From sequence record ON239131: DNA of 30,272 nucleotides; one strand, given 5' to 3'. Both the position numbers and the translations under genes were made by a program. Positions 1,224 through 30,272 of the stretch are shown in pieces (within the stretch, counting starts at the first letter, position 1; the number at the start of each line of letters is the position of its first letter). The stretch comes from Escherichia phage S164. The notes under the pieces were generated by a model. That model ran no database searches and was not told the origin of the DNA. It worked only from the letters and a program-made list of their open reading frames with translations.

Positions 1224-2995
1224 CAGTAAAACTCCAGAATGGTGGATGTCAGCGGAGTGCTGATACCGGCGGTGAGTGGCTCATTTAACAGGGCGTGCAT
1301 GGTCGCCCAGGCGAGGTCGGCGTGGCTGGCTTCCTCGCTGCGGCTGGCCTCATAGGTGGCGCTGCGTCCGCTGCTGGTCATGGTCTTGCGGATAGCCATA
1401 AACGAGCTGGTGATGTCGGTGGCGCTGACGTCATATTCCAGACAGCCACGGCGGATAACGTCTTTTGCCTTGAGCACCATTGCGGTTTTCATTTCCGGCG
1501 TGTAGCGGATATCGCGCGCGGCGGGATAGAACGAGCGCACGAGCTGGAACACACCGACACCGAGGCCGGTGGCATCAATCCCGATGTATTCAACGTTATA
1601 TTTTTCGGTGAGTTTGCGGATGGATTCTGCCTGGGTGGCAAAGTCCATGCCTTTCCACTGGTGACGCTCAAGGATCCTGAATTTGCCACCGGCCACCACC
1701 GGCGGTGCCAGCACCACGCATCCGGCGCTGTCGCCACGGTGTGACGGGTCGTAACCAATCCATACCGGGCGGGAGCCGAACGGATTTGCGGCAAACGGTG
1801 CATAGTCTTCCCATTCTTCCAGCGTATCGACCATGCAGCGTTGCAGCTCCTCGAACGGGAACACCGACGCTTTGTCGTCAACAAATTCACACATGAACAG
1901 GTTTTTAAAATCGTCGGCGCTGTTTTCACGTTTGAGCTGCTCAATGTCGAACAGCGTGCAGCCGCCTTTCAGCGCGTCCTCAATGGTGACAATCTGCCGC
2001 CACTGGCCGTCCGCACAGAGAAGCCCACCGGCAAGGGCGTTATGACTGACGTCGATTTCCACGCGTTCGGCGGCGCTGGCGCGTCCCCGGTTGAACAGTT
2101 CACCCGACCAGAACGGGTAGGCGTCGTGCGCCAGCGTGGACGGGGTGGAGAAATAGGTCGAGCGCAGGTGACTCTGTGAGGCCATACCTGATGCCACCTT
2201 ACGCAGTACCTGAAAATTCGGGATCCAGAAAATCTCGTCGACGTACAGGTCGCCGTTATGGCTCTGTGCGGTGTTGGAGTTGGTGCCGAGAAAAATCAGT
2301 TTTGCACCGTTATTGCCCAGGACAATCGGGTCACCGGTCAGGTCAACGTCAACCAGCCGGGCAAAGGCAATGATGTATTCGCGGAACACATACGCCTGCG
2401 TTTTACTGGCCGACAGAAAAATCTGGTTATGGCCGGTTTTCAGGGCGCGCAGCAGCGCCTCGCGGGAAAAATAAAACGTCGCGCCAATCTGGCGGGATTT
2501 CAGGATATCGCGGATGCGGTGCTCAAGCCCGGCGCGATACCAGTGCAACTGATAGTCGAAAGACTGCTCAAAGAAAATCTGCTCCAGCTTTTCGATGGCC
2601 TCGTCACTGAAAAAATTCTTTTTCGGTTTGCGACGCCCGCCTTTGTTGCGGTTAGCGACGTTCGGATTAAGGTCTGCCTCGTTGCCGGTCTGACTGTAAC
2701 GGTTGACCCGTGCCAGTCGTTCAATCTGGCGTCCGAGCAGGTCAATTTCCTTGAAGTCACCGCCGGTTTTCTGCGGTTTGATGATGAGCTGGGTCAGCCT
2801 CGCTTCCAGACTCATTTCGACACGGCTGATGGGGGCAACGCTGTCCCAGCCGTCGCGCTGTTTCCAGCTCTGCACCGTCGGGCGTTTCATCTGCAACATG
2901 GCGGCAATCTGCGGCACGGAAAATCCCTGCCAGTACAGCAGCGCCGCCTGACGACGCGGGTCGTGTAAAAGAGTGGTGTCTGTGGTGATGGTCAT
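1223..2995 (-). CDS. P: Terminase large (ATPase) subunit, P2 gpP
   Basis: Starting at the MTITTDTT ATG at 2995 gives 590 aa, equal to P2 P, with a GAGG ribosome-binding site upstream. The 600-aa version in the ORF track is an N-terminal over-extension. Confidence 0.88.
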   Translation of the reverse strand: MTITTDTTLLHDPRRQAALLYWQGFSVPQIAAMLQMKRPTVQSWKQRDGWDSVAPISRVEMSLEARLTQLIIKPQKTGGDFKEIDLLGRQIERLARVNRYSQTGNEADLNPNVANRNKGGRRKPKKNFFSDEAIEKLEQIFFEQSFDYQLHWYRAGLEHRIRDILKSRQIGATFYFSREALLRALKTGHNQIFLSASKTQAYVFREYIIAFARLVDVDLTGDPIVLGNNGAKLIFLGTNSNTAQSHNGDLYVDEIFWIPNFQVLRKVASGMASQSHLRSTYFSTPSTLAHDAYPFWSGELFNRGRASAAERVEIDVSHNALAGGLLCADGQWRQIVTIEDALKGGCTLFDIEQLKRENSADDFKNLFMCEFVDDKASVFPFEELQRCMVDTLEEWEDYAPFAANPFGSRPVWIGYDPSHRGDSAGCVVLAPPVVAGGKFRILERHQWKGMDFATQAESIRKLTEKYNVEYIGIDATGLGVGVFQLVRSFYPAARDIRYTPEMKTAMVLKAKDVIRRGCLEYDVSATDITSSFMAIRKTMTSSGRSATYEASRSEEASHADLAWATMHALLNEPLTAGISTPLTSTILEFY

Positions 2996-3059
2996 GAATA
3001 CCTCGCCGTGATGAATACACGGCAAGGCTACTGAGTCGCGCCCCGCGATTCGCTAAGGT

Positions 3060-3099
3060 GCTGTTGTGTCAGTGATAAGCCATCCGGGACTGATGGCGG
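3060..3099. promoter_or_regulatory. Divergent late promoter region P_P/P_O with the TTGTGTCA-N7-GCCATCCGGGAC element
   Basis: TTGTGTCAGTGATAAGCCATCCGGGAC lies 70-96 bp upstream of the O ATG. The same 27-mer architecture stands upstream of FI. The minus strand carries TGACACAA followed by TTAGCGAATCGCGGGG upstream of P. Confidence 0.4.
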
Positions 3100-3168
3100 A
3101 GGATGCGCATCGTCGGGAAACTGATGCCGACATGTGACTCCTCTAATCACTATTCAGGACTCCTGACA

Positions 3169-4023
3169 ATGGCAAAAAAAGTCTCAAAATTCTTTCGTAT
3201 CGGCGTTGAGGGTGACACCTGTGACGGGCGTGTCATCAGTGCGCAGGATATTCAGGAAATGGCCGAAACCTTTGACCCGCGAGTCTATGGTTGCCGCATT
3301 AACCTGGAACATCTGCGCGGCATCCTGCCTGACGGTATTTTTAAGCGTTATGGCGATGTGGCCGAACTGAAGGCCGAAAAGATTGACGATGATTCGGCGC
3401 TGAAAGGCAAATGGGCGCTGTTTGCGAAAATCACCCCGACCGATGACCTTATCGCGATGAACAAGGCCGCGCAGAAGGTCTATACCTCAATGGAAATTCA
3501 GCCGAACTTTGCCAATACCGGCAAATGTTATCTGGTGGGTCTGGCCGTCACCGATGACCCGGCAAGCCTCGGCACGGAATACCTGGAATTCTGCCGCACG
3601 GCAAAACACAACCCCCTGAACCGCTTCAAATTAAGCCCTGAAAACCTGATTTCAGTGGCAACGCCTGTTGAGCTGGAATTTGAAGACCTGCCTGAAACCG
3701 TGTTCACCGCCCTGACCGAAAAGGTGAAATCCATTTTTGGCCGCAAACAGGCCAGCGATGACGCCCGTCTGAATGACGTGCATGAAGCGGTGACCGCTGT
3801 TGCTGAACATGTGCAGGAAAAACTGAGCGCCACTGAGCAGCGCCTCGCTGAGATGGAAACCGCCTTTTCCGCACTTAAGCAGGATGTGACTGACAGGGCG
3901 GATGAAACCAGCCAGGCATTCACCCGCCTGAAAAACAGTCTCGACCACACCGAAAGTCTGACCCAGCAGCGCCGCAGCAAGGCCACCGGTGGTGGCGGTG
4001 ACGCCCTGATGACGAACTGCTGA
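3169..4023 (+). CDS. O: Capsid scaffolding protein, P2 gpO
   Basis: Starting at MAKKVSKFFRIGVEG gives 284 aa, equal to P2 O. It is transcribed divergently from P. Confidence 0.88.
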   Translation: MAKKVSKFFRIGVEGDTCDGRVISAQDIQEMAETFDPRVYGCRINLEHLRGILPDGIFKRYGDVAELKAEKIDDDSALKGKWALFAKITPTDDLIAMNKAAQKVYTSMEIQPNFANTGKCYLVGLAVTDDPASLGTEYLEFCRTAKHNPLNRFKLSPENLISVATPVELEFEDLPETVFTALTEKVKSIFGRKQASDDARLNDVHEAVTAVAEHVQEKLSATEQRLAEMETAFSALKQDVTDRADETSQAFTRLKNSLDHTESLTQQRRSKATGGGGDALMTNC

Positions 4024-4081
4024 CCGGCGTCAGTCAGTCCGGGAAAACCTTCACGATTAACCCTTAATTTCAGGAAAAACT

Positions 4082-5155
4082 ATGCGCCAGGAAACCCGCT
4101 TTAAATTTAATGCCTACCTGTCCCGTGTTGCCGAACTGAACGGCATCGACGCCGGTGATGTGTCGAAAAAATTCACCGTTGAACCGTCGGTCACCCAGAC
4201 CCTGATGAACACCATGCAGGAGTCCTCTGATTTTCTGACCCGCATCAACATTGTGCCGGTCAGCGAAATGAAAGGGGAAAAAATTGGTATTGGTGTCACC
4301 GGCTCCATCGCCAGCACCACCGACACCGCCGGTGGCACCGAGCGTCAGCCGAAGGACTTCTCGAAGCTGGCGTCCAGTAAGTACGAATGCGACCAGATTA
4401 ACTTCGATTTTTATATCCGCTACAAAACGCTGGACCTGTGGGCGCGTTATCAGGATTTCCAGCTCCGTGTCCGTAACGCCATTATCAAACGTCAGTCCCT
4501 TGATTTAATCATGGCCGGTTTTAACGGCGTGAAGCGTGCCGAAACCTCTGACCGCAGCAGCAATCCGATGCTGCAGGATGTGGCGGTCGGCTGGCTGCAG
4601 AAATACCGCAATGAAGCCCCGGCGCGCGTGATGAGCAAGGTTACTGACGAGGAAGGTCACACCACCTCTGAGGTCATCCGCGTGGGTAAGGGCGGTGATT
4701 ATGCCAGCCTCGATGCACTGGTGATGGATGCGACCAACAACCTGATTGAGCCGTGGTATCAGGAAGACCCTGACCTTGTGGTGATTGTGGGGCGTCAGTT
4801 ACTGGCGGACAAGTATTTCCCCATCGTTAACAAGGAGCAGGACAACAGCGAAATGCTGGCCGCTGACGTCATCATCAGCCAGAAACGCATCGGTAACCTG
4901 CCGGCGGTACGCGTCCCGTACTTCCCGGCGGATGCGATGCTCATCACGAAGCTGGAAAACCTGTCCATCTACTACATGGATGACAGCCATCGCCGCGTGA
5001 TTGAGGAAAACCCGAAACTCGACCGCGTGGAGAACTACGAGTCAATGAACATTGATTACGTGGTGGAAGACTACGCCGCCGGTTGTCTGGTGGAAAAAAT
5101 TAAGGTCGGTGACTTCTCCACACCGACTAAAGTGACCGCAGAGCCGGGAGCGTAA
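4082..5155 (+). CDS. N: Major capsid protein, P2 gpN
   Basis: 357 aa, equal to P2 N, in the O-N-M order. Confidence 0.9.
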   Translation: MRQETRFKFNAYLSRVAELNGIDAGDVSKKFTVEPSVTQTLMNTMQESSDFLTRINIVPVSEMKGEKIGIGVTGSIASTTDTAGGTERQPKDFSKLASSKYECDQINFDFYIRYKTLDLWARYQDFQLRVRNAIIKRQSLDLIMAGFNGVKRAETSDRSSNPMLQDVAVGWLQKYRNEAPARVMSKVTDEEGHTTSEVIRVGKGGDYASLDALVMDATNNLIEPWYQEDPDLVVIVGRQLLADKYFPIVNKEQDNSEMLAADVIISQKRIGNLPAVRVPYFPADAMLITKLENLSIYYMDDSHRRVIEENPKLDRVENYESMNIDYVVEDYAAGCLVEKIKVGDFSTPTKVTAEPGA

Positions 5156-5158
5156 CCG

Positions 5159-5902
5159 ATGACGAGTCCCGCACAGCGCCACATGATGCGGGTCTCGGCA
5201 GCGATGACCGCGCAGCGGGACGCCGCCCCGCTGCGACATGCAACTGTCTATGAGCAGATGCTGGTCAAGCTGGCCGCAGACCAGCGCACACTGAAAGCGA
5301 TTTATTCAAAAGAGCTGAAGGCCGCGAAAAAACGCGAACTGCTGCCGTTCTGGTTGCCGTGGGTGAACGGCGTGCTGGAGCAGGGCAAAGGTGCACAGGA
5401 TGACATTCTGATGACGGTCATGCTGTGGCGTCTGGATACCGGCGATATTGCCGGTGCGCTGGAGATTGCCCGTTATGCCCTGAAGTACGGTCTGACCATG
5501 CCGGGTAAACACCGCCGCACCCCGCCGTACATGTTCACCGAGGAGGTGGCGCTTGCGGCCATGCGCGCTCACGCTGCCGGTGAGTCTGTGGATCCCCGCC
5601 TGCTGACGGACACCCTCGAACTGACCGCCACGGCTGACATGCCTGATGAAGTGCGCGCAAAGCTGCACAAAATCACCGGTCTGTTTCTGCGTGACGCTGG
5701 TGATGCCGCAGGTGCGCTGGTACACCTGCAACGTGCGACACAGCTCGACTGTCAGGCAGGCGTCAAAAAAGAGATTGAACGACTGGAGCGGGAGCTGAAA
5801 CCGAAGCCGGAGCCGCAGCCCAAAGCGGCCACCCGCACTCCGCGTAAGACCCGGAGCGTGACACCGGCAAAACGTGGACGCCCGAAAAAGAAAACCAGTT
5901 AA
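5159..5902 (+). CDS. M: Terminase small (endonuclease) subunit, P2 gpM
   Basis: 247 aa, equal to P2 M, with a basic K/R/P-rich C-terminal tail. Confidence 0.88.
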   Translation: MTSPAQRHMMRVSAAMTAQRDAAPLRHATVYEQMLVKLAADQRTLKAIYSKELKAAKKRELLPFWLPWVNGVLEQGKGAQDDILMTVMLWRLDTGDIAGALEIARYALKYGLTMPGKHRRTPPYMFTEEVALAAMRAHAAGESVDPRLLTDTLELTATADMPDEVRAKLHKITGLFLRDAGDAAGALVHLQRATQLDCQAGVKKEIERLERELKPKPEPQPKAATRTPRKTRSVTPAKRGRPKKKTS

Positions 5903-6001
5903 CAACCGAATGCGCCCCGCGCCAGGGCGGCACGCCGGTCAGTGAGGGTGAATCACCTGACACTGCACCGGCGTCCACCGCCCGACTTTTCAGAGGTGGT
6001 C

Positions 6002-21433: not shown

Positions 21434-21652
21434 ATGTTTCATTGTCCTTTATGCCAGCATGCCGCACATGCGCGTACAAGCCGCTATATCACTGACACGA
21501 CAAAAGAGCGTTATCACCAGTGTCAGAACGTGAATTGCAGCGCCACGTTCATCACTTATGAGTCGGTACAGCGATACATCGTGAAGCCGGGAGAAGTCCA
21601 CGCCGTCAGGCCGCACCCGTTGCCGTCAGGGCAGCAAATTATGTGGATGTAA
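21434..21652 (+). CDS. ogr: Late-gene transcriptional activator Ogr (C4 zinc finger)
   Basis: Starting at MFHCPLCQHAAHARTSRYITDTTKERYHQCQNVNCSATF gives 72 aa, equal to P2 Ogr, with a CxxC...CxxxxC zinc-binding motif. The 93-aa ORF from 21371 is an over-extension. Confidence 0.88.
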   Translation: MFHCPLCQHAAHARTSRYITDTTKERYHQCQNVNCSATFITYESVQRYIVKPGEVHAVRPHPLPSGQQIMWM

Positions 21653-21664
21653 TTACAAACAGAA

Positions 21665-21691
21665 AGCCCCTCAGTCGAGGGGCTTTTTTTG
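21665..21691 (+). terminator. Rho-independent terminator after ogr
   Basis: AGCCCCTC agtc GAGGGGCT followed by TTTTTTT. Confidence 0.75.
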
Positions 21692-21868
21692 TCGATGTGG
21701 TCAATGTGTGGACGTGACCAGAAATAAATCCTTTTATTTCATGCAATTAGATATCAAAAAATGTCACCAATAACTGACTTGGTAGCCCCCGCCGCAGCGG
21801 TATTTTCTGTTGTATTACAATTAGTTAAATTACTCATATCGCTTCAATTGGCTCTAGTTAACTCTGGT
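21692..21868. other. attP: Candidate attP region (AT-rich, flanked by TGGAC-type direct repeats)
   Basis: The interval between ogr and the int 3' end is where attP lies in P2 and 186. It is AT-rich. TGTGGTC and TGTGGAC lie 11 bp apart at 21695-21712, and TTATGGAC occurs twice 12 bp apart at 21856-21875, running into the end of int. Confidence 0.4.
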
Positions 21869-22864
21869 TTATGGACGCATTATGGACATTCCTGACACCG
21901 GGTTAAGAGTCACAGCATCTTGTAAGAAATCCGGTGCAAAGTGTGCGTAGGTCATAGTTTGCTGAATGTTAGAATGACCCAGGATGCGCTGCAATGTGAT
22001 TATGTTACCTCCATTCATTATAAAATGTGTGGCAAATGTATGCCTCAAAACATGCACTGCCTGTCCGTCAGGTAAATCGGGTTTTACTTCCCTGAGAGCG
22101 TTGCGCACTTTGTAGTAACTGGCATTAAAAAGCCTGCCTGAATTTTTGGTCTTGATCCGTTTAATCAGGTCCTGCGAAACGGGAATTGTCCTGCGCTTTC
22201 CGTTTTTAGTTTTCATAAACGTAACCATCTGGTTAATGATGTGTTCAGCTTTCAAATTAGACACTTCACTCCAGCGTCCACCAGTAGAAAGGCAGACCAG
22301 AGTTGCATTTAACTCATCACCATCAAGCATGGATAACAGCCGCGTAATCTCTTCACTGGACAAAAAAGCCATTTCCGTAACAGCTTCACGTAACCGCTTA
22401 ACCTCACGGAACGGGTTGTGAGAGTGATATTCACCGGCGTCAATTAACTTGGTGAACATCCCGCTCATTATTGCCAGATGCCGATTTACGCTGGCTGGTT
22501 TTAGGCCATCGTTCATCATTACAACGCGATAATCAGTTATCGTTTTCTTTGTTAGCTGGTCCGCCCTGGACACTCCCATCTCGGCAAATTTGGCGATTAT
22601 TGTCGTCAAACGCCCTCGTTCAATATCTCCACGCTCATGTGATTTTCCGTGATATATCCACCATCTGCCTAACAACTCTGTAAGAGTTCGGCGGTCGGCC
22701 GGCTTCTCCAACCACTCTTTGTTGTGGTAGTTAACCAGGACATGACGTTCGAATGCTTGAGCTTCACCTTTAGTTTTAAATTTCCGCCTGATACGTTTTC
22801 CATCTGCACCCTGCGGTCTGACGTCCACTTCATAACGACCATCATCGAGCTTTTTAATAGACAT
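21869..22864 (-). CDS. int: Tyrosine integrase, P2/186 family
   Basis: 331 aa. The C-terminal catalytic region HVLRHTFATHFIMNGGNIITLQRILGHSNIQQTMTYAHF carries the R-H-R-Y signature. The N-terminus MSIKKLDDGRYEVDVRPQGADGKRIRRKFKTKGEA has the P2/186 integrase arm-binding pattern. A GGAGGG ribosome-binding site precedes the ATG. Confidence 0.88.
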   Translation of the reverse strand: MSIKKLDDGRYEVDVRPQGADGKRIRRKFKTKGEAQAFERHVLVNYHNKEWLEKPADRRTLTELLGRWWIYHGKSHERGDIERGRLTTIIAKFAEMGVSRADQLTKKTITDYRVVMMNDGLKPASVNRHLAIMSGMFTKLIDAGEYHSHNPFREVKRLREAVTEMAFLSSEEITRLLSMLDGDELNATLVCLSTGGRWSEVSNLKAEHIINQMVTFMKTKNGKRRTIPVSQDLIKRIKTKNSGRLFNASYYKVRNALREVKPDLPDGQAVHVLRHTFATHFIMNGGNIITLQRILGHSNIQQTMTYAHFAPDFLQDAVTLNPVSGMSIMRP

Positions 22865-22957
22865 AAAGCCCTCCGATGACGCTGTTTACTTCTACTACTT
22901 GAAAATTAATGCAATTTTCTTTCGTACATTTACTGCACACATATGCTGAATAAATCG

Positions 22958-23269
22958 TCAGCCAGTCTTTTGGTCTGAGTGGTGCAAGGTTGTTGAGTCT
23001 TGCCCAATGTGCGCGAGCGCCGGGGCTATTTGTCCGCCAGCGGGATCAGTTTCATCAAACATGAACCAGTCACGGTACTTGCGAAATCTTTCTGGCTTGA
23101 AAAATTTCATACCTGCGTCAAAAGACATCTTTACTTTTCCCTGCTCATATCCAGCATAGGTGTTGTAGTTAATTCCAGTTAATTCAGCAACTTGCTTCCT
23201 TGTCATTCTTTCTGATTCCCGAATAAGTGCGAGTTTCTCTGCTTGAGATGTGATTTGTGTATTTGACAT
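22958..23269 (-). CDS. C: Immunity repressor, P2 C-like
   Basis: 103 aa with a helix-turn-helix (RKQVAELTGINYNTYAGYEQG). The C-terminus GQIAPALAHIGQDSTTLHHSDQKTG is almost identical to my recollection of the P2 C end (GQIAPALAHFGQ...SGQKTG). Confidence 0.85.
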   Translation of the reverse strand: MSNTQITSQAEKLALIRESERMTRKQVAELTGINYNTYAGYEQGKVKMSFDAGMKFFKPERFRKYRDWFMFDETDPAGGQIAPALAHIGQDSTTLHHSDQKTG

Positions 23270-23273
23270 GAAT

Positions 23274-23301
23274 TGTCGCGTAATTTATGTTGTATGCGAC
23301 A
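23274..23301. promoter_or_regulatory. Inverted repeat TGTCGC-N16-GCGACA in the C/cox switch region: candidate operator over the early promoter
   Basis: Seen directly at 23274-23301, 5 bp from the C start codon. The P2 Pe/Pc operators lie in the corresponding interval. Confidence 0.35.
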
Positions 23302-23368
23302 CGCCAGAACAACGCAGAGCGGCTTCAAATAGCTCTGATTGAATGGCACCAAAGTTGAGGATATCAAA

Positions 23369-23725
23369 ATGAGTATTGGATCAGAAATGAATAACGATGT
23401 TGGAGAAAAAGTATCTGATCTCACAAAAAGTAAAAAATGTGACATCAAACTTGCAGCCGCACCGTCGGATTTGCTCTCGAAAGAGGGTTTTGCTCTTTAC
23501 ATCGGTAAGACGCCTCGTGCTGTTGCTGAAATGGCGAAAGCAGGCAAGTTACCAGCCTTTTATATGACGGACCCATTAAAGCCGGGCGGTCATGCTGAGT
23601 TATGGATTAATCGTCGTGAGTGGGACAAGTACGCAGCCCAGCTAGTTGATGAAGCTCCGACAGAATGGCATGACTGGAAAAATCGCATTAGTTACAGCAA
23701 ATCAAGACATGGCCGTGCGGCTTAA
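23369..23725 (+). CDS. cox: Cox-like excisionase / early-promoter repressor
   Basis: First gene of the rightward early operon, opposite C. LPAFYMTDPLKPGGHAELWI resembles P2 Cox LPVIDMTDP...GEYWVY. A GAGGA ribosome-binding site precedes ATG 23369; the upstream ATG 23339 is less likely. At 118 aa it is longer than P2 Cox (91 aa). Confidence 0.65.
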   Translation: MSIGSEMNNDVGEKVSDLTKSKKCDIKLAAAPSDLLSKEGFALYIGKTPRAVAEMAKAGKLPAFYMTDPLKPGGHAELWINRREWDKYAAQLVDEAPTEWHDWKNRISYSKSRHGRAA

Positions 23726-23735
23726 GGTGGAAAGG

Positions 23736-23906
23736 ATGAACGAGCCTCGTTGTATTGCTCAGTTATTGCGTAACGAAAGCCCCAGGGCGATTGACTTCAC
23801 CATCACCCACGGGAAGGGGCGCAAGGGAATCATTATCCGTACCAAAAAACAGAGTCCGTTAAAAAAGGCTCTGACCTTTCTGAAAAGCCGGAGGGTCTGG
23901 AAATGA
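23736..23906 (+). CDS. Small basic hypothetical protein (P2 orf78 position)
   Basis: 56-aa ORF with an AAGGTGGAAAGG ribosome-binding site, between cox and B. The longer 86-aa ORF from 23646 overlaps cox and lacks a ribosome-binding site. Confidence 0.5.
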   Translation: MNEPRCIAQLLRNESPRAIDFTITHGKGRKGIIIRTKKQSPLKKALTFLKSRRVWK

Positions 23907-24403
23907 CAGTGATGACGCTTAATCTCGTCGAAAAACAGCCAGCAGCTATGCGCCGGATAATTGGTAAGCATCTTGCCGTCCCTCGCTGGCAGGAGACATG
24001 CGATTATTATAATCAGATGATGGAACGCGAACGGCTAACGGTTTGCTTCCATGCGCAGTTAAAACAGCGTCACGCAACGATGCGTTTTGAAGAAATGAAT
24101 GATGTCGAACGTGAACGACTGGTATGTGCAATTGATGAATTGCGTGGGGCATTCTCAAAACGCCGTCAGGTTGGCGCAAGTGAGTATGCATATATTAGTT
24201 TTTTAACAGTCAGTCAGCGTCGTACTTTATTTATGCATGCCGGATTGACTGAAAAAGAATTCAACCAGCCATACTGGCGAATTAATGAAGAATCATGTTA
24301 CTGGCGTGATGCTTTATTCCGTGCATTACGTGAATTATTCAGCCTGTTTGAGTATGCACCGACAATTCTGACGTCGGTAAAACCAGAGCAATATCTGCAT
24401 TAA
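23903..24403 (+). CDS. B: Replication protein B (helicase-loader-like), P2 gpB
   Basis: 166 aa, equal to P2 B, in the B position upstream of A. Confidence 0.85.
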   Translation: MTVMTLNLVEKQPAAMRRIIGKHLAVPRWQETCDYYNQMMERERLTVCFHAQLKQRHATMRFEEMNDVERERLVCAIDELRGAFSKRRQVGASEYAYISFLTVSQRRTLFMHAGLTEKEFNQPYWRINEESCYWRDALFRALRELFSLFEYAPTILTSVKPEQYLH

Positions 24404-24468
24404 GTAATTAACCAGAGTTTTTAACGCACTTAATTGTGCGGGGGGCTTCTTTTTGCCTGGAGAAAGTC

Positions 24469-24693
24469 ATGCATACAGTTTCTGAAAATCAGTGCGGTAA
24501 ATACGCATTACTGCTGCAACAGGCCAGAACCGAAGCACAGGCCGACGCAGCGACGCGCTTTTCTTCTCATCTTGACGCCATGATTCGCCACATCACAAAG
24601 GCGGAGTTATCCCGCGTGGAGATAGTCGAGCTGCTCAGTCAGGAGTCGGAAAAATTTCACAATATCGGATTGTCTCGCGGGGAGGTGCTTTGA
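24469..24693 (+). CDS. Hypothetical early protein (P2 orf80 position)
   Basis: 74-aa ORF with a GGAGAAAG ribosome-binding site. Its stop overlaps the next gene's start. Confidence 0.5.
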
Positions 24694-24995
24694 TGTCCTG
24701 TTCTCGTTCAGTTGTATTACTGAATAACGCCTTAAAAATCGCCGTTATGAAAAATGGCGATTTATCTCTTATTCAACTTGGTCTTGATAAAGAAAAACGC
24801 GAAATAACTGAGTCTGTTATCGCGATTTATCAGAACGAATTAAATCTCCTGTCTGATGTGGTCAATTTACTTGTTAAACGCGCTGTATTTCACAAGCAAA
24901 TCTCCTCCGTGGATGAACTGACGAAATTAACGACAGAAATTGCCAGCTATTGCGCTGATGAATTTAAAAAACTTAACGACAAAAGGAGCTGGTAA
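24690..24995 (+). CDS. Hypothetical early protein (P2 orf81 position)
   Basis: 101-aa ORF, translationally coupled on both sides. Confidence 0.55.
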
Positions 24996-25219
24996 TGCCG
25001 GACAACGTAGATTTTATTCAGAAACAACAGGCTGAATTACTGGAGCGCCAGATTAACGCGGCAAGGGTAAAGCATTGCGGTGTTTCTGCGCTGGTTTGCG
25101 AAGAGTGTGACGCGCCAATACCTGCTGCCCGTCGTGCGGCTTATCCGTCAGCCACGCGTTGTGTTTCCTGCCAGTCAGTCTTTGAAGCAAAAAACAAACA
25201 TTACCGGAGAACGTCATGA
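24995..25219 (+). CDS. TraR/DksA-family C4 zinc-finger protein (P2 orf82-like)
   Basis: 74 aa. The CEECDAPIP...RCVSCQ four-cysteine motif follows an N-terminal helix, the architecture of TraR/DksA. Confidence 0.7.
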   Translation: MPDNVDFIQKQQAELLERQINAARVKHCGVSALVCEECDAPIPAARRAAYPSATRCVSCQSVFEAKNKHYRRTS

Positions 25220-25491
25220 GTATTCGTATTGAAATTGGCGAACGTTATGTCGTTACCAGTGACAGCTTTCAGTTTATTCTCCACGAGAAAAAGAGAGCTG
25301 AAAGCGGTAAAAACGCCGGTCAGGAATGGCTGGCGGTGGTTGGTTATTACCCGAAATTAAGCCAGCTTGTTTCCGGCCTGATGCATCACGATATTCTGAC
25401 CGGAAGCGCAAAGTCTTTTGCTGATTTAAACGCGCAGGTTGAGCAACTCAGCAAGCGTTGTTCAGAGGCTTTTGGCTCATATGGCCGTTAA
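25216..25491 (+). CDS. Hypothetical early protein (P2 orf83 position)
   Basis: 91-aa ORF overlapping the A start. Confidence 0.55.
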   Translation: MSIRIEIGERYVVTSDSFQFILHEKKRAESGKNAGQEWLAVVGYYPKLSQLVSGLMHHDILTGSAKSFADLNAQVEQLSKRCSEAFGSYGR

Positions 25492-27766
25492 AGCCTCCGG
25501 GCGTTTTGTCCCTCCGTCAGCATTTGCCGCAGGCACCGGTGAGACGTTTACCGGTGCTTATGCATGGAACGCGCCACGCGAGGCCGTCGGGCGCGAAAGA
25601 CCCCTTACACGTGACGAGATGCGTCAGGTGCAAGGTGTTTTATCCACGATTAATCGCCTGCCTTACTTTTTGCGCTCGCTGTTTACTTCACGCTATGACT
25701 ACATCCGGCGCAATAAAAGCCCGGTGCACGGGTTTTATTTCCTCACATCCACTTTTCAGCGCCGTTTATGGCCGCGTATTGAGCGCGTGAATCAGCGCCA
25801 TGAAATGAACACCGACGCGTCGTTGCTGTTTCTGGCAGAGCGTGACCATTATGCGCGTCTGCCGGGGATGAATGACAAGGAGCTGAAAAAGTTTGCCGCC
25901 CGTATCTCATCGCAGCTTTTCATGATGTATGAGGAACTCTGCGATGCATGGGTTGATGCACATGGCGAGAAAGAATCGCTGTTTACAGATGAGGCGCAGG
26001 CGCATCTGTATGGTCATGTTGCTGGCGCTGCACGTGCTTTCAATATTTCCCCTCTCTACTGGAAAAAATACCGTAAAGGACAGATGACCACGAGGCAGGC
26101 ATATTCTGCCATTGCCCGTCTGTTTAACGATGAGTGGTGGACTCATCAGCTTAAAGGCCAGCGTATGCGCTGGCATGAGGCGTTACTGATTGCTGTCGGG
26201 GAGGTCAATAAAGACCGTTCTCCTTATGCCAGTAAACATGCCATTCGTGATGTGCGTGCACGCCGCCAGGCAAATCTGGAATTTCTTAAATCGTGTGACC
26301 TCGAAAACAGGGAAACCGGCGAGCGCATCGATCTTATCAGTAAGGTGATGGGCAGTATTTCTAATCCTGAAATTCGCCGGATGGAGCTGATGAACACCAT
26401 CGCCGGTATTGAGCGTTACGCCGCCGCAGAGGGTGATGTGGGGATGTTTATCACTCTGACCGCGCCGTCAAAGTATCACCCGACACGTCAGGTCGGAAAA
26501 GGCGAAAGTAAAACCGTCCAGCTAAATCACGGCTGGAATGATGAGGCATTTAATCCAAAGGATGCGCAGCGTTATCTCTGCCGCATCTGGAGCCTGATGC
26601 GCACGGCATTCAAGGATAATGATTTACAGGTCTACGGTTTGCGAGTCGTCGAGCCACACCACGACGGAACGCCGCACTGGCATATGATGCTTTTTTGTAA
26701 TCCACGCCAGCGTAACCAGATTATCGAAATCATGCGTCGCTATGCGCTCAAAGAGGATGGTGACGAAAGAGGAGCCGCGCGAAACCGTTTTCAGGCAAAA
26801 CACCTTAACCGGGGCGGTGCTGCGGGATATATCGCGAAATACATCTCAAAAAACATCGATGGCTATGCACTGGATGGTCAGCTCGATAACGATACCGGCA
26901 GGCCGCTGAAAGACACTGCCGCGGCTGTTACCGCATGGGCGTCAACGTGGCGCATTCCGCAATTTAAAACGGTTGGCCTGCCGACAATGGGGGCTTACCG
27001 TGAACTACGCAAATTGCCTCGCGGCGTCAGCATTGCTGATGAGTTTGACGAACGCGTCGAGGCTGCACGCGCTGCCGCAGACAGTGGTGATTTTGCGTTG
27101 TATATCAGCGCGCAGGGTGGGGCAAATGTTCCGCGCGATTGTCAGACTGTCAGGGTTGCCCGTAGTCCGTCGGATGAAGTTAACGAGTACGAGGAAGAAG
27201 TCGAGAGAGTGGTCGGCATTTACGCGCCGCATCTCGGCGCGCGTCATATTCATATCACCAGAACGACGGACTGGCGCATTGTTCCGAAAGTGCCGGTCGT
27301 TGAGCCTTTGACTTTAAAAAGCGGCATCGCCGCGCCTCGGAGTCCTGTCAATAACTGTGGAAAGCTCACCGGTGGTGATACTTCGTTACCGGCTCCCACA
27401 CCTTCTGAGCACGCCGCAGCAGTGCTAAATCTGGTTGATGACGGTGTTATCGAATGGAATGACCCGGAGGTTGTGAGGACGCTCAGGGGTGCATTAAAAC
27501 ACGGCCTGAAAACACCAAATCGTCAGCAAAGAAACGGAAGCCCGTTAAAACCACATGAAATAGCACCGTCGGCCAGACTGACCCGGTCGGAACGATTGCA
27601 AATTACCCGTATCCGCGTTGACCTCGCTCAGAACGGTATCAGGCCGCAACGATGGGAGCTTGAGGCGCTGGCGCGTGGCGCGACAGTAAATTATGACGGG
27701 AAAAAATTCACGTATCCGGTCGCTGATGAGTGGTCGGGATTCTCAACAGTAATGGAGTGGACATGA
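25481..27766 (+). CDS. A: Rolling-circle replication initiator endonuclease, P2 gpA
   Basis: Starting at MAVKASGRFVPPSAFAAGTG gives 761 aa, equal to P2 A. It contains the HUH-type histidine motif GTPHWHMMLF and tyrosine-containing GAAGYIAKYISKN. The ORF-track start at 25439 adds 14 aa. Confidence 0.9.
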   Translation: MAVKASGRFVPPSAFAAGTGETFTGAYAWNAPREAVGRERPLTRDEMRQVQGVLSTINRLPYFLRSLFTSRYDYIRRNKSPVHGFYFLTSTFQRRLWPRIERVNQRHEMNTDASLLFLAERDHYARLPGMNDKELKKFAARISSQLFMMYEELCDAWVDAHGEKESLFTDEAQAHLYGHVAGAARAFNISPLYWKKYRKGQMTTRQAYSAIARLFNDEWWTHQLKGQRMRWHEALLIAVGEVNKDRSPYASKHAIRDVRARRQANLEFLKSCDLENRETGERIDLISKVMGSISNPEIRRMELMNTIAGIERYAAAEGDVGMFITLTAPSKYHPTRQVGKGESKTVQLNHGWNDEAFNPKDAQRYLCRIWSLMRTAFKDNDLQVYGLRVVEPHHDGTPHWHMMLFCNPRQRNQIIEIMRRYALKEDGDERGAARNRFQAKHLNRGGAAGYIAKYISKNIDGYALDGQLDNDTGRPLKDTAAAVTAWASTWRIPQFKTVGLPTMGAYRELRKLPRGVSIADEFDERVEAARAAADSGDFALYISAQGGANVPRDCQTVRVARSPSDEVNEYEEEVERVVGIYAPHLGARHIHITRTTDWRIVPKVPVVEPLTLKSGIAAPRSPVNNCGKLTGGDTSLPAPTPSEHAAAVLNLVDDGVIEWNDPEVVRTLRGALKHGLKTPNRQQRNGSPLKPHEIAPSARLTRSERLQITRIRVDLAQNGIRPQRWELEALARGATVNYDGKKFTYPVADEWSGFSTVMEWT

Positions 27767-28218
27767 TGGCAAAAATTCACGAGGTAAAGCTGCACGCAAA
27801 ATATTTCGACCTTGTGCTGGAAGGAAAGAAACGCGCAGAGTTTCGGAAAAATGACCGTAATTATGAGCGCGGGGACACGTTGATTTTGCATGAATGGGGG
27901 CAGGGTGTGTATACGGGGCGAAAGGTTGAAGCCCGGATAACAGATGTTACTGACCTGTCAGACTGGCTGGAAGATTATGTCTTGCTAAGTATTGAGCTGC
28001 TTAATACAGGCGCATATGAGATTGTGAACAGGAAAGAACTTAGTGAGCGTGGTCTGTTATTCAGAATTAATCATGAAATTATGCATAAGCTCGGCCTTGC
28101 TGTTATGTATGAACCAGAGACGGGAATGTCTGGCGGGGCAATGGTTGCCACGGATGGAGCATGGAACTATTCAGATGAACAGATGGAGCGTGCACAGCAA
28201 AACGGGTGGCTTGGATAA
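27763..28218 (+). CDS. DUF3850/ASCH-like (PUA-fold) protein with an extra C-terminal domain; first gene of the A-to-cos accessory locus
   Basis: Its start, ATGATGG, overlaps the A stop. The N-terminus KIHEVKLHAKYFDLVLEGKKRAEFRKNDRNYERGDTLILHEW fits the DUF3850/ASCH signature pattern (KxHELKxxxxYFxxVxxGxKxFEIRKNDRxFxxGDxLxLxEW). 151 aa. Confidence 0.6.
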   Translation: MMAKIHEVKLHAKYFDLVLEGKKRAEFRKNDRNYERGDTLILHEWGQGVYTGRKVEARITDVTDLSDWLEDYVLLSIELLNTGAYEIVNRKELSERGLLFRINHEIMHKLGLAVMYEPETGMSGGAMVATDGAWNYSDEQMERAQQNGWLG

Positions 28219-28424
28219 TGCACAGAATACCAGGCGAGATACCGCACCATAAAACTAAAAATATCAAGCTGATGGCTATTGTTCAGCGTTTACAGCGGAT
28301 TATGGTCAACGAAAATCTGACGCCCGATGAGCTAGTCGGGTGTGCCGAAATAGTCCGGGATAATTACGGGCGGTTTAACTATATCGGTCAGTCCAGAGTT
28401 GCGCCACCACCACGCAGACGATAG
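28218..28424 (+). CDS. Small hypothetical protein, translationally coupled to the DUF3850 gene
   Basis: The ATG at 28218 overlaps the upstream TAA. 68 aa, with a basic PPPRRR C-terminus. The ORF-track start at 28206 is a GTG. Confidence 0.45.
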   Translation: MHRIPGEIPHHKTKNIKLMAIVQRLQRIMVNENLTPDELVGCAEIVRDNYGRFNYIGQSRVAPPPRRR

Positions 28425-28427
28425 ATA

Positions 28428-28470
28428 ACGCCGCCAGTCGTGAAACTTGTTTTCAGGGCTGGCGGCGTTG
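28428..28470 (+). terminator. Stem-loop with an 11-bp perfect inverted repeat (AACGCCGCCAG...CTGGCGGCGTT) closing the A operon
   Basis: Seen directly. The 21-nt loop contains a T-rich stretch. It is part of the first copy of the 61-bp conserved element. Confidence 0.4.
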
Positions 28471-28495
28471 AACAACGAGTGAAGCGAGGCGTTAG
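28435..28495 (+). repeat. Copy A of a ~61-bp conserved intergenic element
   Basis: CAGTCGTGAAACTTGTTTTCAGGGCTGGCGGCGTTGAACAACGAGTGAAGCGAGGCGTTAG matches the copy at 29407-29467 at about 75% identity. Each copy begins 10-20 bp after a stop codon. Confidence 0.7.
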
Positions 28496-28653
28496 TTGAC
28501 ATTCATATTTTTACTGCGTTGGTGCTGTTTTTTGACGGTTGAAAGGAGTTATCTCGGAGAGCTAAAGCTAACAACTTACAAATATTCAAAAGTAAGCTTC
28601 CTGTTGCTAACATAAGGTCGATTTTTTATGTGGATGATGCAAAAAGGATAGCT

Positions 28654-29385
28654 ATGGATACTATAATCGCTTTTCTATCACTCGCTTTTTTTGTTGCTTT
28701 TTTCATCGGGTTAATCAAGCCATCACTGGTGCGAATGCCAAGCCGCAAACGTGCAAGTGCGGTTTATCTCGGAGGAGGTTTTGTATTGAGCATAATTGGT
28801 TCAATACTCTATCCAACAGAAAAAAGCCAGCCAGTTGCTAAAACTGAAACATCAACCGTTGTAGAACACCAAGTCCAAAAAACATTCGAATATGGTGAAA
28901 AAACACTCAAGGAATATCGGAGCGAGCCAAAGAAAACTCGACACGATATTGTGAATAGTTACATTGACTTTAAGAAAGTTCCAGTCACCGCATCAGATGC
29001 ATTTTATGCCTGCATGAGTGAGTATACATTTACCAAAGATGATGAGTTGAAACTCGGTGATGTTCTTGGGTGGTGCTTTAATGATTATGAAAATGACCCG
29101 AGTTCACTAAATAATAAAATCAATCTTGATACATTTCAGAGTAATTTTAGTGGTTGGGATGGTTCTTATCGTCCATTGGAAAAACTAATTAAAGATAATA
29201 TGAACGATGATTCATCTTATAAACATGTATCAACGGTATATCATTTAGTTTTGAATAAAGACCCGCACGCCATTGTGAAAACGACGTTTCGCGGCACTAA
29301 TGCTTATGGTGGCATGGTCAAACAGACTGTAGCAGCGCGAGTTGACGTGCGAACGGGTGAGATCGATTCAATACTCGACAATTAA
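28654..29385 (+). CDS. Hypothetical membrane protein (two N-terminal transmembrane helices, C-terminal soluble domain of about 180 aa): accessory cargo gene 1
   Basis: AT-rich ORF. MDTIIAFLSLAFFVAFFIGLI and AVYLGGGFVLSIIGSILY are hydrophobic helices separated by a positively charged loop. An AAAGGA ribosome-binding site stands 6 nt before ATG 28654; a GTG at 28630 is an alternative start. I recognise no family. Confidence 0.6.
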   Translation: MDTIIAFLSLAFFVAFFIGLIKPSLVRMPSRKRASAVYLGGGFVLSIIGSILYPTEKSQPVAKTETSTVVEHQVQKTFEYGEKTLKEYRSEPKKTRHDIVNSYIDFKKVPVTASDAFYACMSEYTFTKDDELKLGDVLGWCFNDYENDPSSLNNKINLDTFQSNFSGWDGSYRPLEKLIKDNMNDDSSYKHVSTVYHLVLNKDPHAIVKTTFRGTNAYGGMVKQTVAARVDVRTGEIDSILDN

Positions 29386-29406
29386 ATAATATAGTGACAG
29401 CTCCGT

Positions 29407-29467
29407 CAGTGATGAAACTTGCTTTTAGTCTTGGCGGGGTTGAGCAATGAGTCTTGCAAGGTGTTAG
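29407..29467 (+). repeat. Copy B of the ~61-bp conserved intergenic element
   Basis: CAGTGATGAAACTTGCTTTTAGTCTTGGCGGGGTTGAGCAATGAGTCTTGCAAGGTGTTAG. See copy A. Confidence 0.7.
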
Positions 29468-29468
29468 C

Positions 29469-30125
29469 ATGCGTAGAATGGAAGCTGCTTGGACGTGGGG
29501 TATTCATATGAATTTAAAAATTTTCGGCATAATTGTCCTTTCTGCTTTGATGTTCGTTTTAGGTTTTTTTCTCGGTGGTTTTAATTGGGAATGGGCTGAT
29601 AAGAATTATGCAGGTGAGGTGGCGTTGTGGAGTATGTTAGGAGGGTGGTTATCCGCAATTGCAACTCTGTTTGCCGTGTTGGTTTCATTATATATGGCGT
29701 ATCAAGCTACTCAGAATGAGATTGAAAAAATCAGGGTTACTCATGGAGTAAGTATGAGTGTCACTCATGACAATGAGTTAAGTTGTAATCTCATTATTCA
29801 GAACTTGAGAAATATGAAAGTGAATATTACTGGTGTTTTTTTGTCTCTAGGTAAATCATCAGGTAAGTACTCTTTGGATAAAGTAATTGACAATTGTAAT
29901 ATAACGCTTTCATATAAAGGTGAAACAGAAAAGGTACAATTTGTAATCCATTCTGGGTATATTTGGTGGTCAATGTATAAATTATTCGATATGGATAAGA
30001 ACATAGGTTTTGAAAAGGGTAAGATCTTTATAACAACCAACCTCAATACATATGAATTTGATTTGCCAAAAGAATATTTAAGAGCTTTTGAGAAAGCTTA
30101 TTCGGAGTATCAGACAAAAAAATAA
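29469..30125 (+). CDS. Hypothetical membrane protein (two N-terminal transmembrane helices plus a C-terminal domain): accessory cargo gene 2
   Basis: AT-rich ORF. IFGIIVLSALMFVLGFFLGGF and LGGWLSAIATLFAVLVSLYMAY are transmembrane helices. ATG 29469 has an AAGGTG ribosome-binding site; ATGs at 29454 and 29508 are alternatives. No recognisable similarity to cargo gene 1 or to any family I know. Confidence 0.55.
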   Translation: MRRMEAAWTWGIHMNLKIFGIIVLSALMFVLGFFLGGFNWEWADKNYAGEVALWSMLGGWLSAIATLFAVLVSLYMAYQATQNEIEKIRVTHGVSMSVTHDNELSCNLIIQNLRNMKVNITGVFLSLGKSSGKYSLDKVIDNCNITLSYKGETEKVQFVIHSGYIWWSMYKLFDMDKNIGFEKGKIFITTNLNTYEFDLPKEYLRAFEKAYSEYQTKK

Positions 30126-30132
30126 TGAGCTG

Positions 30133-30160
30133 CATGCAAAAGGTGCATGTTTTTGCATGT
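30133..30160 (+). terminator. Hairpin (CATGCAAAA...TTTTGCATG) after cargo gene 2
   Basis: A 9-bp inverted repeat directly after the stop codon. The trailing T tract is weak. Confidence 0.35.
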
Positions 30161-30254
30161 GCTAAGTTCACTGGTTTTGTGTATATCGCTTCAGATCTAG
30201 CGTGGTTCCGGGGAGGGCATGCAACTGCATTAAAACCGCTCCATGAAGCGGGCG

Positions 30255-30272
30255 GGCGAGGCGGGGAAAGCA
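30255..30272. other. cos: cos site, right copy (GGCGAGGCGGGGAAAGCA)
   Basis: Identical to bases 1-18, so the window is one genome unit plus the cohesive-end duplication. Confidence 0.8.

What the first reader, a model, noticed from the sequence alone, without database searches (positions are those of the whole stretch)
28425..30130. AT-rich two-gene membrane-protein island in the P2 tin/old defence hotspot
The window is about 52% GC overall, and the stretch from about 28.5 to 30.13 kb drops sharply by eye. It sits exactly where P2 carries tin and old, between the replication gene A and cos. P2-like prophages are known to swap anti-phage systems at this hotspot. P2 tin and old are both absent. 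In their place are two unrelated ORFs. Each encodes two N-terminal transmembrane helices followed by a soluble domain of about 170-180 aa. Each is preceded by a copy of the same ~61-bp element. I recognise no motif from any characterised defence family (Old, Tin, Abi, Sie, kinase, nuclease, TIR). If these act like small membrane effectors, the N-terminal two-helix anchor fits abortive-infection or superinfection-exclusion proteins. This looks like a novel cargo system.
Basis: partly seen in the sequence, partly recalled or inferred. Interest (0 to 1): 0.85.

Follow-up and report, generated by a model that had tools for sequence, protein, structure and literature searches.

The report
Phage 186 orf97 plus swappable membrane gene

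Summary
Bases 28425-30130 are the lowest-GC part of the window (37.7% against 52.7%). They contain two unrelated plus-strand genes between replication gene A and cos. Each gene has two N-terminal membrane helices, and each is preceded by a copy of one conserved element. P2 Tin and Old are absent.

Gene 1 is 78% identical over its full length to phage 186 Orf97, whose GenBank note reads 'expression from plasmid blocks 186 infection'. It is a member of a known family. Predicted topology, two invariant cysteines and an HdeA-like fold place its soluble domain in the periplasm, which fits a block to phage entry.

Gene 2 belongs to an uncharacterised family with no Pfam, PADLOC or PDB match. It is predicted to hold a basic beta-sandwich domain on the cytoplasmic side.

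The two genes are not an obligate pair. Most orf97 loci lack gene 2, some gene 2 loci lack orf97, and gene 2 variants are shuffled against near-identical orf97 genes.

The repeated element is not specific to a cassette. It occurs across P2/186-like phages and consists of an 18-bp hairpin with strong covariation, read on the plus strand, followed by a near-invariant ribosome-binding-like tail. It has no Rfam match and marks the entry to the variable cargo slot. This element is the most novel item found.

The parts
28421..28499 (+). Copy 1 of the conserved structured element (P2/Wphi type). It has an 18-bp hairpin at 28427-28469 followed by GTTGAACAACGAG-TGAA-GCGAGGCGTTAG. It starts directly after the stop codon of the small orf92-like gene.
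   Evidence: Direct repeat. 94% identical to P2-like phages Wphi and SIAC10. Covariance model hit of 89.6 bits. RNA fold -36.1 kcal/mol, z = -5.5.
28654..29385 (+). Gene 1, a homologue of phage 186 orf97 (243 aa). Predicted layout: membrane helices 3-21 and 36-53, a cytoplasmic basic loop, a disordered linker at 56-74, and a periplasmic domain at 79-243 with invariant Cys120 and Cys141.
29393..29471 (+). Copy 2 of the conserved element (186 type, diverged). Its AAGG lies 7 nt before the ATG at 29469.
   Evidence: 59.5 bits. It folds into the hairpin only on the plus strand.
29508..30125 (+). Gene 2, 205 aa (218 aa if it starts at ATG 29469). Predicted layout: membrane helices at about 5-24 and 39-63, then a basic beta-sandwich domain predicted to face the cytoplasm. 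The family is uncharacterised.
30132..30160 (+). Terminator-like hairpin plus T run after gene 2. It is the likely end of the gene 1-gene 2 transcript and the positional counterpart of 186 t95b.
30254..30272 (.). Right cohesive end (cosR), one base short of the P2 sequence.
27763..28424 (+). P2-type backbone to the left of the island: an orf91-like ASCH/DUF3850/DUF7415 gene (27763-28218) and a small orf92-like gene (28206-28424).

Best explanation
The island is a composite of two independent single-gene modules, not a new two-gene system.

Module 1 (gene 1) is the phage 186 gene orf97. In 186 it belongs to the LexA-controlled tum-orf97 SOS operon. Here it sits on a P2-type backbone without tum and without a LexA box. 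Its product is anchored in the inner membrane by two helices, with a strongly basic loop in the cytoplasm. Its 165-residue domain, which carries two invariant cysteines, lies in the periplasm. From there it most likely stops an incoming 186-like phage at an early envelope step, such as DNA entry. That would be superinfection exclusion rather than cell suicide.

Module 2 (gene 2) fills the variable cargo slot that follows a conserved RNA element in P2/186-like phages. It is an inner-membrane protein with a basic beta-sandwich domain on the cytoplasmic side. It is probably a second, separately evolving exclusion or abortive determinant, but nothing shows this directly.

Both genes are probably transcribed together up to the terminator at 30132-30160.

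The repeated element is a plus-strand RNA hairpin followed by a conserved ribosome-binding-like tail. It sits at the end of the preceding gene. It most likely governs processing, stability or translation of whatever gene comes next.

Shown: homology, gene contexts, hairpin covariation, and the exclusion note on 186 Orf97. Inferred: topology, the stage of the block, any anti-phage role of gene 2, and the role of the element.
For: Gene 1:
- 78% identity over the full length to 186 Orf97, whose record note reads 'expression from plasmid blocks 186 infection'.
- The family keeps a length of 243 aa across Enterobacterales.
- The loop between the two helices averages 4.6 Lys+Arg and 0.03 Asp+Glu, the N-terminus is acidic, and two cysteines are invariant in 39 of 39 sequences.
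- The best structural matches are all periplasmic proteins: HdeA, HdeB, YmgD, Rap1a and Tai4.
- The window has no tum and no LexA box.

Gene 2:
- It lies directly after Orf97 in 39 of 46 loci.
- It also occurs without Orf97 in Serratia, in Kosakonia (next to an ApeA-like HEPN gene) and in four viral contigs.
- Where checked, it is preceded by the element even when Orf97 is missing.
- Distant one-helix relatives sit at accessory-gene positions in other temperate phages, for example between the lysis genes and terminase.
- In 83 of 325 locus pairs Orf97 is at least 90% identical while gene 2 is below 45% identical.

Element:
- At least 120 viral contigs carry it.
- Its 18 pairs are 92.3% paired, and 14 of them show compensatory changes. 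None of 500 shuffles reaches the observed values, and slid controls give 29-48% pairing.
- There are 169 G-U cells against 10 A-C cells.
- It starts next to the stop codon of DinI/Tum, Orf97 or orf92-like genes, and in many loci an ATG follows its GAGG by 7-10 nt.
Against: - No experiment exists on this protein. The phenotype is taken from a GenBank note on a homologue that is 78% identical.
- The stage at which 186 is blocked is not known to me.
- No convincing sigma-70 promoter was found between 28425 and 28653. Expression in a lysogen is therefore unproven. The genes might be made only by read-through from the early operon during lytic growth.
- The topology of gene 2 rests on a weak charge bias (+1.5 at the N-terminus against -1.0 in the loop). 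Beta-sandwich domains are common outside the cytoplasm.
- Gene 2 follows Orf97 in 85% of its loci, so a functional link is not excluded.
- The near-invariance of the element's tail is partly forced, because the instances were fetched with a pattern taken from that tail.
Confidence: 0.55

Rival explanations
1. The two genes form one obligate two-component membrane defence system. For example, periplasm-facing Orf97 would sense an incoming phage and cytoplasm-facing gene 2 would act as the effector.
For: Gene 2 follows Orf97 in 39 of 46 loci and in all 29 E. coli genomes that carry it. The two proteins are predicted to face opposite sides of the same membrane. No terminator lies between them.
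Against: Orf97 stands alone in phage 186 and blocks infection from a plasmid. 58 of 87 E. coli genomes with Orf97 lack gene 2. None of 19 unbiased Orf97 loci has gene 2. Gene 2 occurs without Orf97 in six loci. The two genes show little co-divergence (Spearman 0.29) and many swaps.
Confidence: 0.12
2. The genes serve the phage's own lytic cycle rather than defence of the lysogen. They would be made at induction or early in infection, and would shut the envelope to further phages of the same kind or stop progeny being lost on already infected cells.
For: In 186 and in the Klebsiella, Citrobacter and Salmonella relatives, orf97 and gene 2 lie downstream of tum, behind an SOS-controlled promoter. 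No separate promoter is detectable in the window. The phage recorded as blocked is 186 itself.
Against: The window has lost tum and the LexA box, so SOS timing cannot apply here. The slot is the one where P2-like phages carry genes expressed in lysogens.
Confidence: 0.2
3. One or both genes are lysogenic-conversion genes unrelated to phages. They would change the host envelope, for example its stress tolerance, in the way accessory genes such as lambda bor do (the bor comparison is from my own knowledge).
For: The fold of the Orf97 domain resembles the periplasmic stress chaperones HdeA and HdeB. Distant gene 2 relatives sit between the lysis genes and terminase in lambdoid-type phages. About a fifth of cargo protein groups in this hotspot match defence models, and a cytolethal distending toxin is among the other cargo.
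Against: The only phenotype on record for the Orf97 family is a block to phage infection. The HdeA match covers 66 residues at 6% identity.
Confidence: 0.1
4. The repeated element acts at the DNA level rather than as a regulatory RNA. It could be a shared homology patch or hairpin that promotes cargo exchange, or a terminator for the upstream operon.
For: It sits exactly at the border between conserved and variable DNA. The window's two copies frame gene 1 as a recombination product would. The tail is conserved in sequence, with no informative covariation.
Against: G-U pairs outnumber A-C pairs 169 to 10, and copy 2 folds only on the plus strand. That points to a transcript of the sense strand. 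No T run follows the hairpin, and the terminator scan does not call it. The tail carries GAGG at ribosome-binding distance from start codons in many loci.
Confidence: 0.2

Closest known systems
Phage 186 Orf97 (AAC34191, record U32222), the last gene of the LexA-controlled p95 tum-orf97 operon
   Same: Gene 1 is 78% identical over all 243 residues. It has the same two-helix anchor, the same position between A and cos, and the same structured element after its stop codon.
   Different: The window has no tum, no p95 promoter and no LexA box, and the backbone is P2-type (orf91/orf92-like genes). A further gene follows it, whereas in 186 the t95b terminator follows it.
P2 Tin and Old, the classical cargo of this hotspot
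   Same: Same interval between A and cos. Both are accessory cargo.
   Different: There is no sequence similarity. Tin and Old are on the opposite strand and are transcribed from near cos. P2 itself lacks the structured element. Old is annotated as an AAA family ATPase and exonuclease, not a membrane protein.
Membrane-anchored superinfection-exclusion proteins such as T4 Imm and Sp, P22 SieA and HK97 gp15 (a functional class, named from my own knowledge)
   Same: Small phage-encoded inner-membrane proteins. The Orf97 family is recorded as blocking infection by a phage of its own kind. The predicted periplasmic domain fits a block at entry.
   Different: No sequence or profile match to any of them. 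The stage of the block has not been determined.
HdeA/HdeB/YmgD/Rap1a/Tai4 fold, shared by small periplasmic helical proteins that include type VI immunity proteins
   Different: Identity is 5-16%. Orf97 adds a membrane anchor and a four-stranded sheet. Shared function is not implied.
ApaG / DUF525 and other immunoglobulin-like beta-sandwiches
   Different: Identity is 8-9% and the fold is generic. ApaG has no membrane anchor.

Membership tests
Phage 186 Orf97 family (PHROG 3403) | Full-length sequence homology to 186 Orf97 | tested here: met
   78% identity over 243 of 243 residues, E 9e-152. PHROG 3403 at E 7e-144.
Phage 186 Orf97 family (PHROG 3403) | Two-helix anchor, basic loop and two conserved cysteines in the C-terminal domain | tested here: met
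   Cys120 and Cys141 are invariant in 39 of 39 sequences.
Phage 186 Orf97 family (PHROG 3403) | Location between replication gene A and cos of a P2/186-like phage | tested here: met
Phage 186 Orf97 family (PHROG 3403) | Blocks 186 infection when expressed | not testable with these tools
186-type SOS operon (p95-tum-orf97) | tum (DinI-like) gene and LexA-repressed promoter upstream of orf97 | tested here: not met
   No DinI/Tum ORF lies between A and gene 1. No LexA box lies near the island.
P2 Old / Tin | Sequence homology to Old or Tin | tested here: not met
   The best tblastn E-value is 0.23, outside the island. No PADLOC hit.
Catalogued anti-phage defence systems (PADLOC-DB 2.0) | Match to any defence protein model | tested here: not met
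   No families for either protein at E up to 1.
Superinfection exclusion proteins (functional class) | Membrane location of a phage-encoded protein | tested here: met
   Prediction only.
Superinfection exclusion proteins (functional class) | Expression in the lysogen, and a block at DNA entry without death of the cell | not testable with these tools
   The promoter scan found no site upstream of gene 1. No experiments were possible.
Two-gene system (obligate pair) | The genes co-occur as a unit and co-diverge | tested here: not met
Rfam RNA families (for the repeated element) | Match to a curated covariance model | tested here: not met
   No match at E up to 1 in 27500-30272.
Intrinsic terminator (for the repeated element) | G+C-rich hairpin followed by a T run | tested here: not met
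   GTTGAAC follows the hairpin. The scan calls only 30132-30150 on the plus strand.

The most novel reading that the evidence does not exclude
Two linked proposals remain open. First, the conserved hairpin with its ribosome-binding-like tail may be an undescribed cis-acting RNA that serves as the common expression switch for the cargo slot of P2/186-like phages, for instance as a processing site that uncouples cargo from the early or SOS transcript. Second, the gene 2 family may be a new, fast-diversifying class of cytoplasm-facing membrane proteins with anti-phage activity.
Probability: 0.2. Interest if true: 0.65.

Novelty: new member of a known kind. Interest (0 to 1): 0.38.

Why it matters
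The main value is corrective. A locus flagged as a new defence system turns out to be a known, barely studied exclusion gene plus a cargo gene of unknown function.

Three points remain useful:
1. Orf97 is widespread in Enterobacterales prophages, yet it is absent from the defence catalogue searched. Its mode of action has not been worked out, as far as I could find.
2. The gene 2 family has about 300 clusters at 50% identity. Its close members sit next to cos in P2/186-like phages; the distant relatives examined sit at accessory-gene positions in other temperate phages. It has no annotation anywhere.
3. The structured element gives a precise, searchable left border for the P2/186 cargo slot. 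It is also a candidate regulatory RNA with clear covariation.

Tried and rejected
Searches that gave nothing useful:
- Pfam, NCBIfam and PADLOC scans of both proteins.
- Profile searches of PDB sequences.
- Foldseek against viral models for gene 2: TM-scores were at most 0.36 and the targets were unnamed.
- The afdb50 library was unavailable.
- Rfam on the region.
- The promoter scan found no site upstream of either gene.
- LexA box searches.
- Brumby et al. 1996 on the 186 SOS operon, which I recall as the primary paper, is not held. Full-text searches found only passing mentions of orf97.

Ideas considered and dropped:
- The element as an intrinsic terminator: it has no T run.
- The element as a minus-strand terminator for leftward cargo genes: the G-U asymmetry argues against it.
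- A pseudoknot between the hairpin loop and the four variable bases of the tail: no pattern was visible by eye.
- A second hairpin in the tail: pairs are predicted, but they do not vary, so they are uninformative.
- The hotspot papers read do not mention Orf97 or a matching two-helix pair.

Full report
Observation. The window is a complete P2-like (Peduovirus) genome in virion orientation. Its first 25 kb are 97% identical to phage pro483 and other P2-like phages, and it ends one base short of P2 cosR. GC is 52.7% overall and 37.7% in 28425-30130. That is the lowest value of any 1706-nt window, about three standard deviations below the mean. After replication gene A (25439-27766) come an orf91-like ASCH/DUF3850 gene and a small orf92-like gene. 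Two plus-strand genes follow: gene 1 (28654-29385, 243 aa) and gene 2 (29508-30125, 205 aa, or 218 aa from ATG 29469). They are unrelated to each other, and each begins with two hydrophobic helices. A 72-nt direct repeat, 74% identical, lies before each gene. Tin and Old are absent. The element is longer than 61 bp. The soluble part of gene 2 is about 140 aa. In P2 itself, tin and old are on the other strand.

Gene 1 is phage 186 orf97. A DNA search of phage records matched the gene 1 region to the phage 186 interval that holds orf97. The proteins are 78% identical over all 243 residues with no gaps. The 186 record (U32222) places orf97 downstream of tum in the operon driven by the LexA-repressed promoter p95. 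Its note on Orf97 reads 'expression from plasmid blocks 186 infection'. From memory, this comes from Brumby et al., Virology 1996, which I could not obtain. The family is PHROG 3403, 'unknown function'. It keeps a length of about 243 aa in Escherichia, Klebsiella, Salmonella, Serratia, Yersinia, Erwinia, Photorhabdus and others. More distant copies occur in Vibrio phage VHML and other phages. The window has no tum gene and no LexA box, so the 186 form of control does not apply here.

Gene 2 belongs to an unnamed family. It is PHROG 16957, 'unknown function', and has no match in Pfam, NCBIfam, PADLOC or PDB sequences. A profile search of 1.84 billion representative proteins found 299 clusters at E up to 0.001 and 21 at E up to 1e-30. 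Ten distant members have no significant Pfam match, and those that carry a name are called hypothetical proteins. In Klebsiella, Citrobacter, Salmonella and Enterobacter prophages of the 186 type, the gene order is A, tum (DinI-like), orf97, gene 2, cos, portal. In E. coli P2-type prophages the order is A, orf91, orf92, orf97, gene 2 variant.

The two genes are not an obligate pair. Among 5426 complete E. coli genomes, 87 carry the orf97 region and 29 carry gene 2, always together. Elsewhere orf97 is followed by unrelated genes, for example a 429-aa soluble protein or a 260-aa protein with a C-terminal helix. It may also be followed by deeply diverged gene 2 relatives at 24-31% identity. None of 19 Orf97 loci retrieved through Orf97 alone from one genome per species has gene 2. 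Conversely, gene 2 relatives occur without Orf97. Examples are a Serratia prophage (A, gene 2, cos), a Kosakonia prophage (beside an ApeA-like HEPN gene) and four viral contigs. In all, 39 of 46 gene 2 loci have Orf97 directly upstream. Across 26 distinct pairs, 83 of 325 comparisons have Orf97 at least 90% identical with gene 2 below 45% identical. Eighteen show the reverse, and the rank correlation is only 0.29. Gene 2 is thus exchanged independently of orf97. Distant one-helix relatives lie at accessory-gene positions in other temperate phages. One such position is between the lysis genes (holin, GH19 endolysin, DUF2514) and terminase. Another is after the tail tube gene.

The repeated element. 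The sequence after the orf97 stop codon is conserved in every orf97 locus aligned, including phage 186 itself, where it is unannotated. Copy 1 of the window is the version found in P2-like phages such as Wphi, just before their cargo genes. A pattern from its 3' half hit at least 120 viral contigs before the scan reached its limit. In 106 distinct instances, an 18-bp hairpin is 92.3% paired, and 14 of its 18 pairs show changes on both sides. None of 500 shuffles reaches the observed values, and sliding the partners gives 29-48% pairing. G-U pairs number 169 against 10 A-C pairs, so the structure is read on the plus, sense strand. Copy 2 of the window folds into the hairpin only on that strand.

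The tail, GTTGAACAACGAG-NNNN-GCGAGGCGTTAG, is nearly invariant. Part of that invariance is forced by the way the instances were collected. Divergent copies found with a covariance model keep it as well. The tail contains GAGG or AAGG, and in many loci a start codon follows 7-10 nt later. In the window this is the ATG at 29469. The hairpin begins within a few bases of the stop codon of the preceding gene. That gene is DinI/Tum-like in 71 of 137 instances, Orf97 in 22 and orf92-like in 21. P2 itself has no copy. Rfam has no match, and the element is not followed by a T run.

The general layout is therefore: backbone (A, sometimes tum, sometimes orf97), then the element, then the variable cargo, then a terminator, then cos. 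The window has two copies because a 186-type block (orf97, element, gene 2) sits in the cargo slot behind a P2-type copy of the element. Gene 2 relatives that lack Orf97 are still preceded by the element in the three such loci tested (L174, L175, L183).

No terminator separates the genes, and a terminator-like hairpin follows gene 2. This suggests a single transcript. No promoter was found upstream, so expression in the lysogen is open.

Comparison with what is known, and verdict. Gene 1 is a member of the Orf97 family, without the SOS control of the 186 prototype. Gene 2 and the element match nothing described in the libraries searched. The hotspot and its diverse, mostly unannotated cargo are already well documented. 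I rate the finding as a new member of a known kind, with interest 0.38. The claim of a novel two-gene system is not supported. The exclusion idea is supported for gene 1 by earlier work. The structured element and the gene 2 family are the parts that merit follow-up.

Noticed in passing
E. coli records, e.g. NZ_CP172140.1 bases 1-2286: Many complete E. coli chromosome records place this island at exactly 2920-4792, and the record begins at the prophage 'replication endonuclease' (gpA) gene. These assemblies seem to have been rotated to start at the phage replication gene rather than at dnaA, which looks like an artefact of a start-fixing tool.
   Followed up: no
NZ_CM145183.1 (E. coli strain E1), hits H57 and H102; corresponds to window 28560-29390: The orf97 region is split into two pieces spanning 1608 nt instead of 831, with an IS1A transposase annotated under the match. 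Gene 1 therefore appears to be interrupted by IS1 in that strain.
   Followed up: no
L103 and L034, about 35 nt after the element: A perfect LexA-box-like palindrome (ACTGTATGCATATACAGT or ACTGTATATATATACAGT) follows the element. In some relatives the element therefore precedes an SOS-controlled promoter instead of following the SOS operon.
   Followed up: no
33 viral loci, e.g. L020, L088, L093 (gene starts 7-10 nt after the element): The commonest gene after the element encodes a small protein of 55-93 aa beginning M-x-x-x-D-x-N-Y-Q-(I/V)-V-Y-R-G. It has no Pfam match.
   Followed up: partly
L166 (Kosakonia sp. BYX6) 3501-5830: A gene 2 relative (30% identity) lies directly before a 461-aa ApeA-like HEPN protein (PF18862, PF18739) in the A-to-portal interval. 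No Orf97 is present.
   Followed up: partly
L142 (Enterobacter chuandaensis) 5461-5539 and 5858-5936: This is another locus with two copies of the structured element about 400 nt apart, as in the window. Tandem stacking behind the element may therefore be recurrent.
   Followed up: no
L201, L203, L192 and related viral contigs: One-helix relatives of gene 2 share the motif W-S-M-I-G-T-W-(L/V)-x-G-I-A-T. They sit between the lysis cassette and terminase, or after the tail tube gene, of phages that are not P2-like.
   Followed up: partly
window 21500-25000: This is a second low-GC stretch (42-45%). From its position it probably covers the integrase, immunity and early region. It was not examined.
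   Followed up: no
window 27763-28218: The orf91-like gene combines ASCH/DUF3850 with DUF7415 (151 aa). It is longer than P2 Orf91 (330 nt) and Wphi orf91 (282 nt), and its start overlaps the end of gene A.
   Followed up: no
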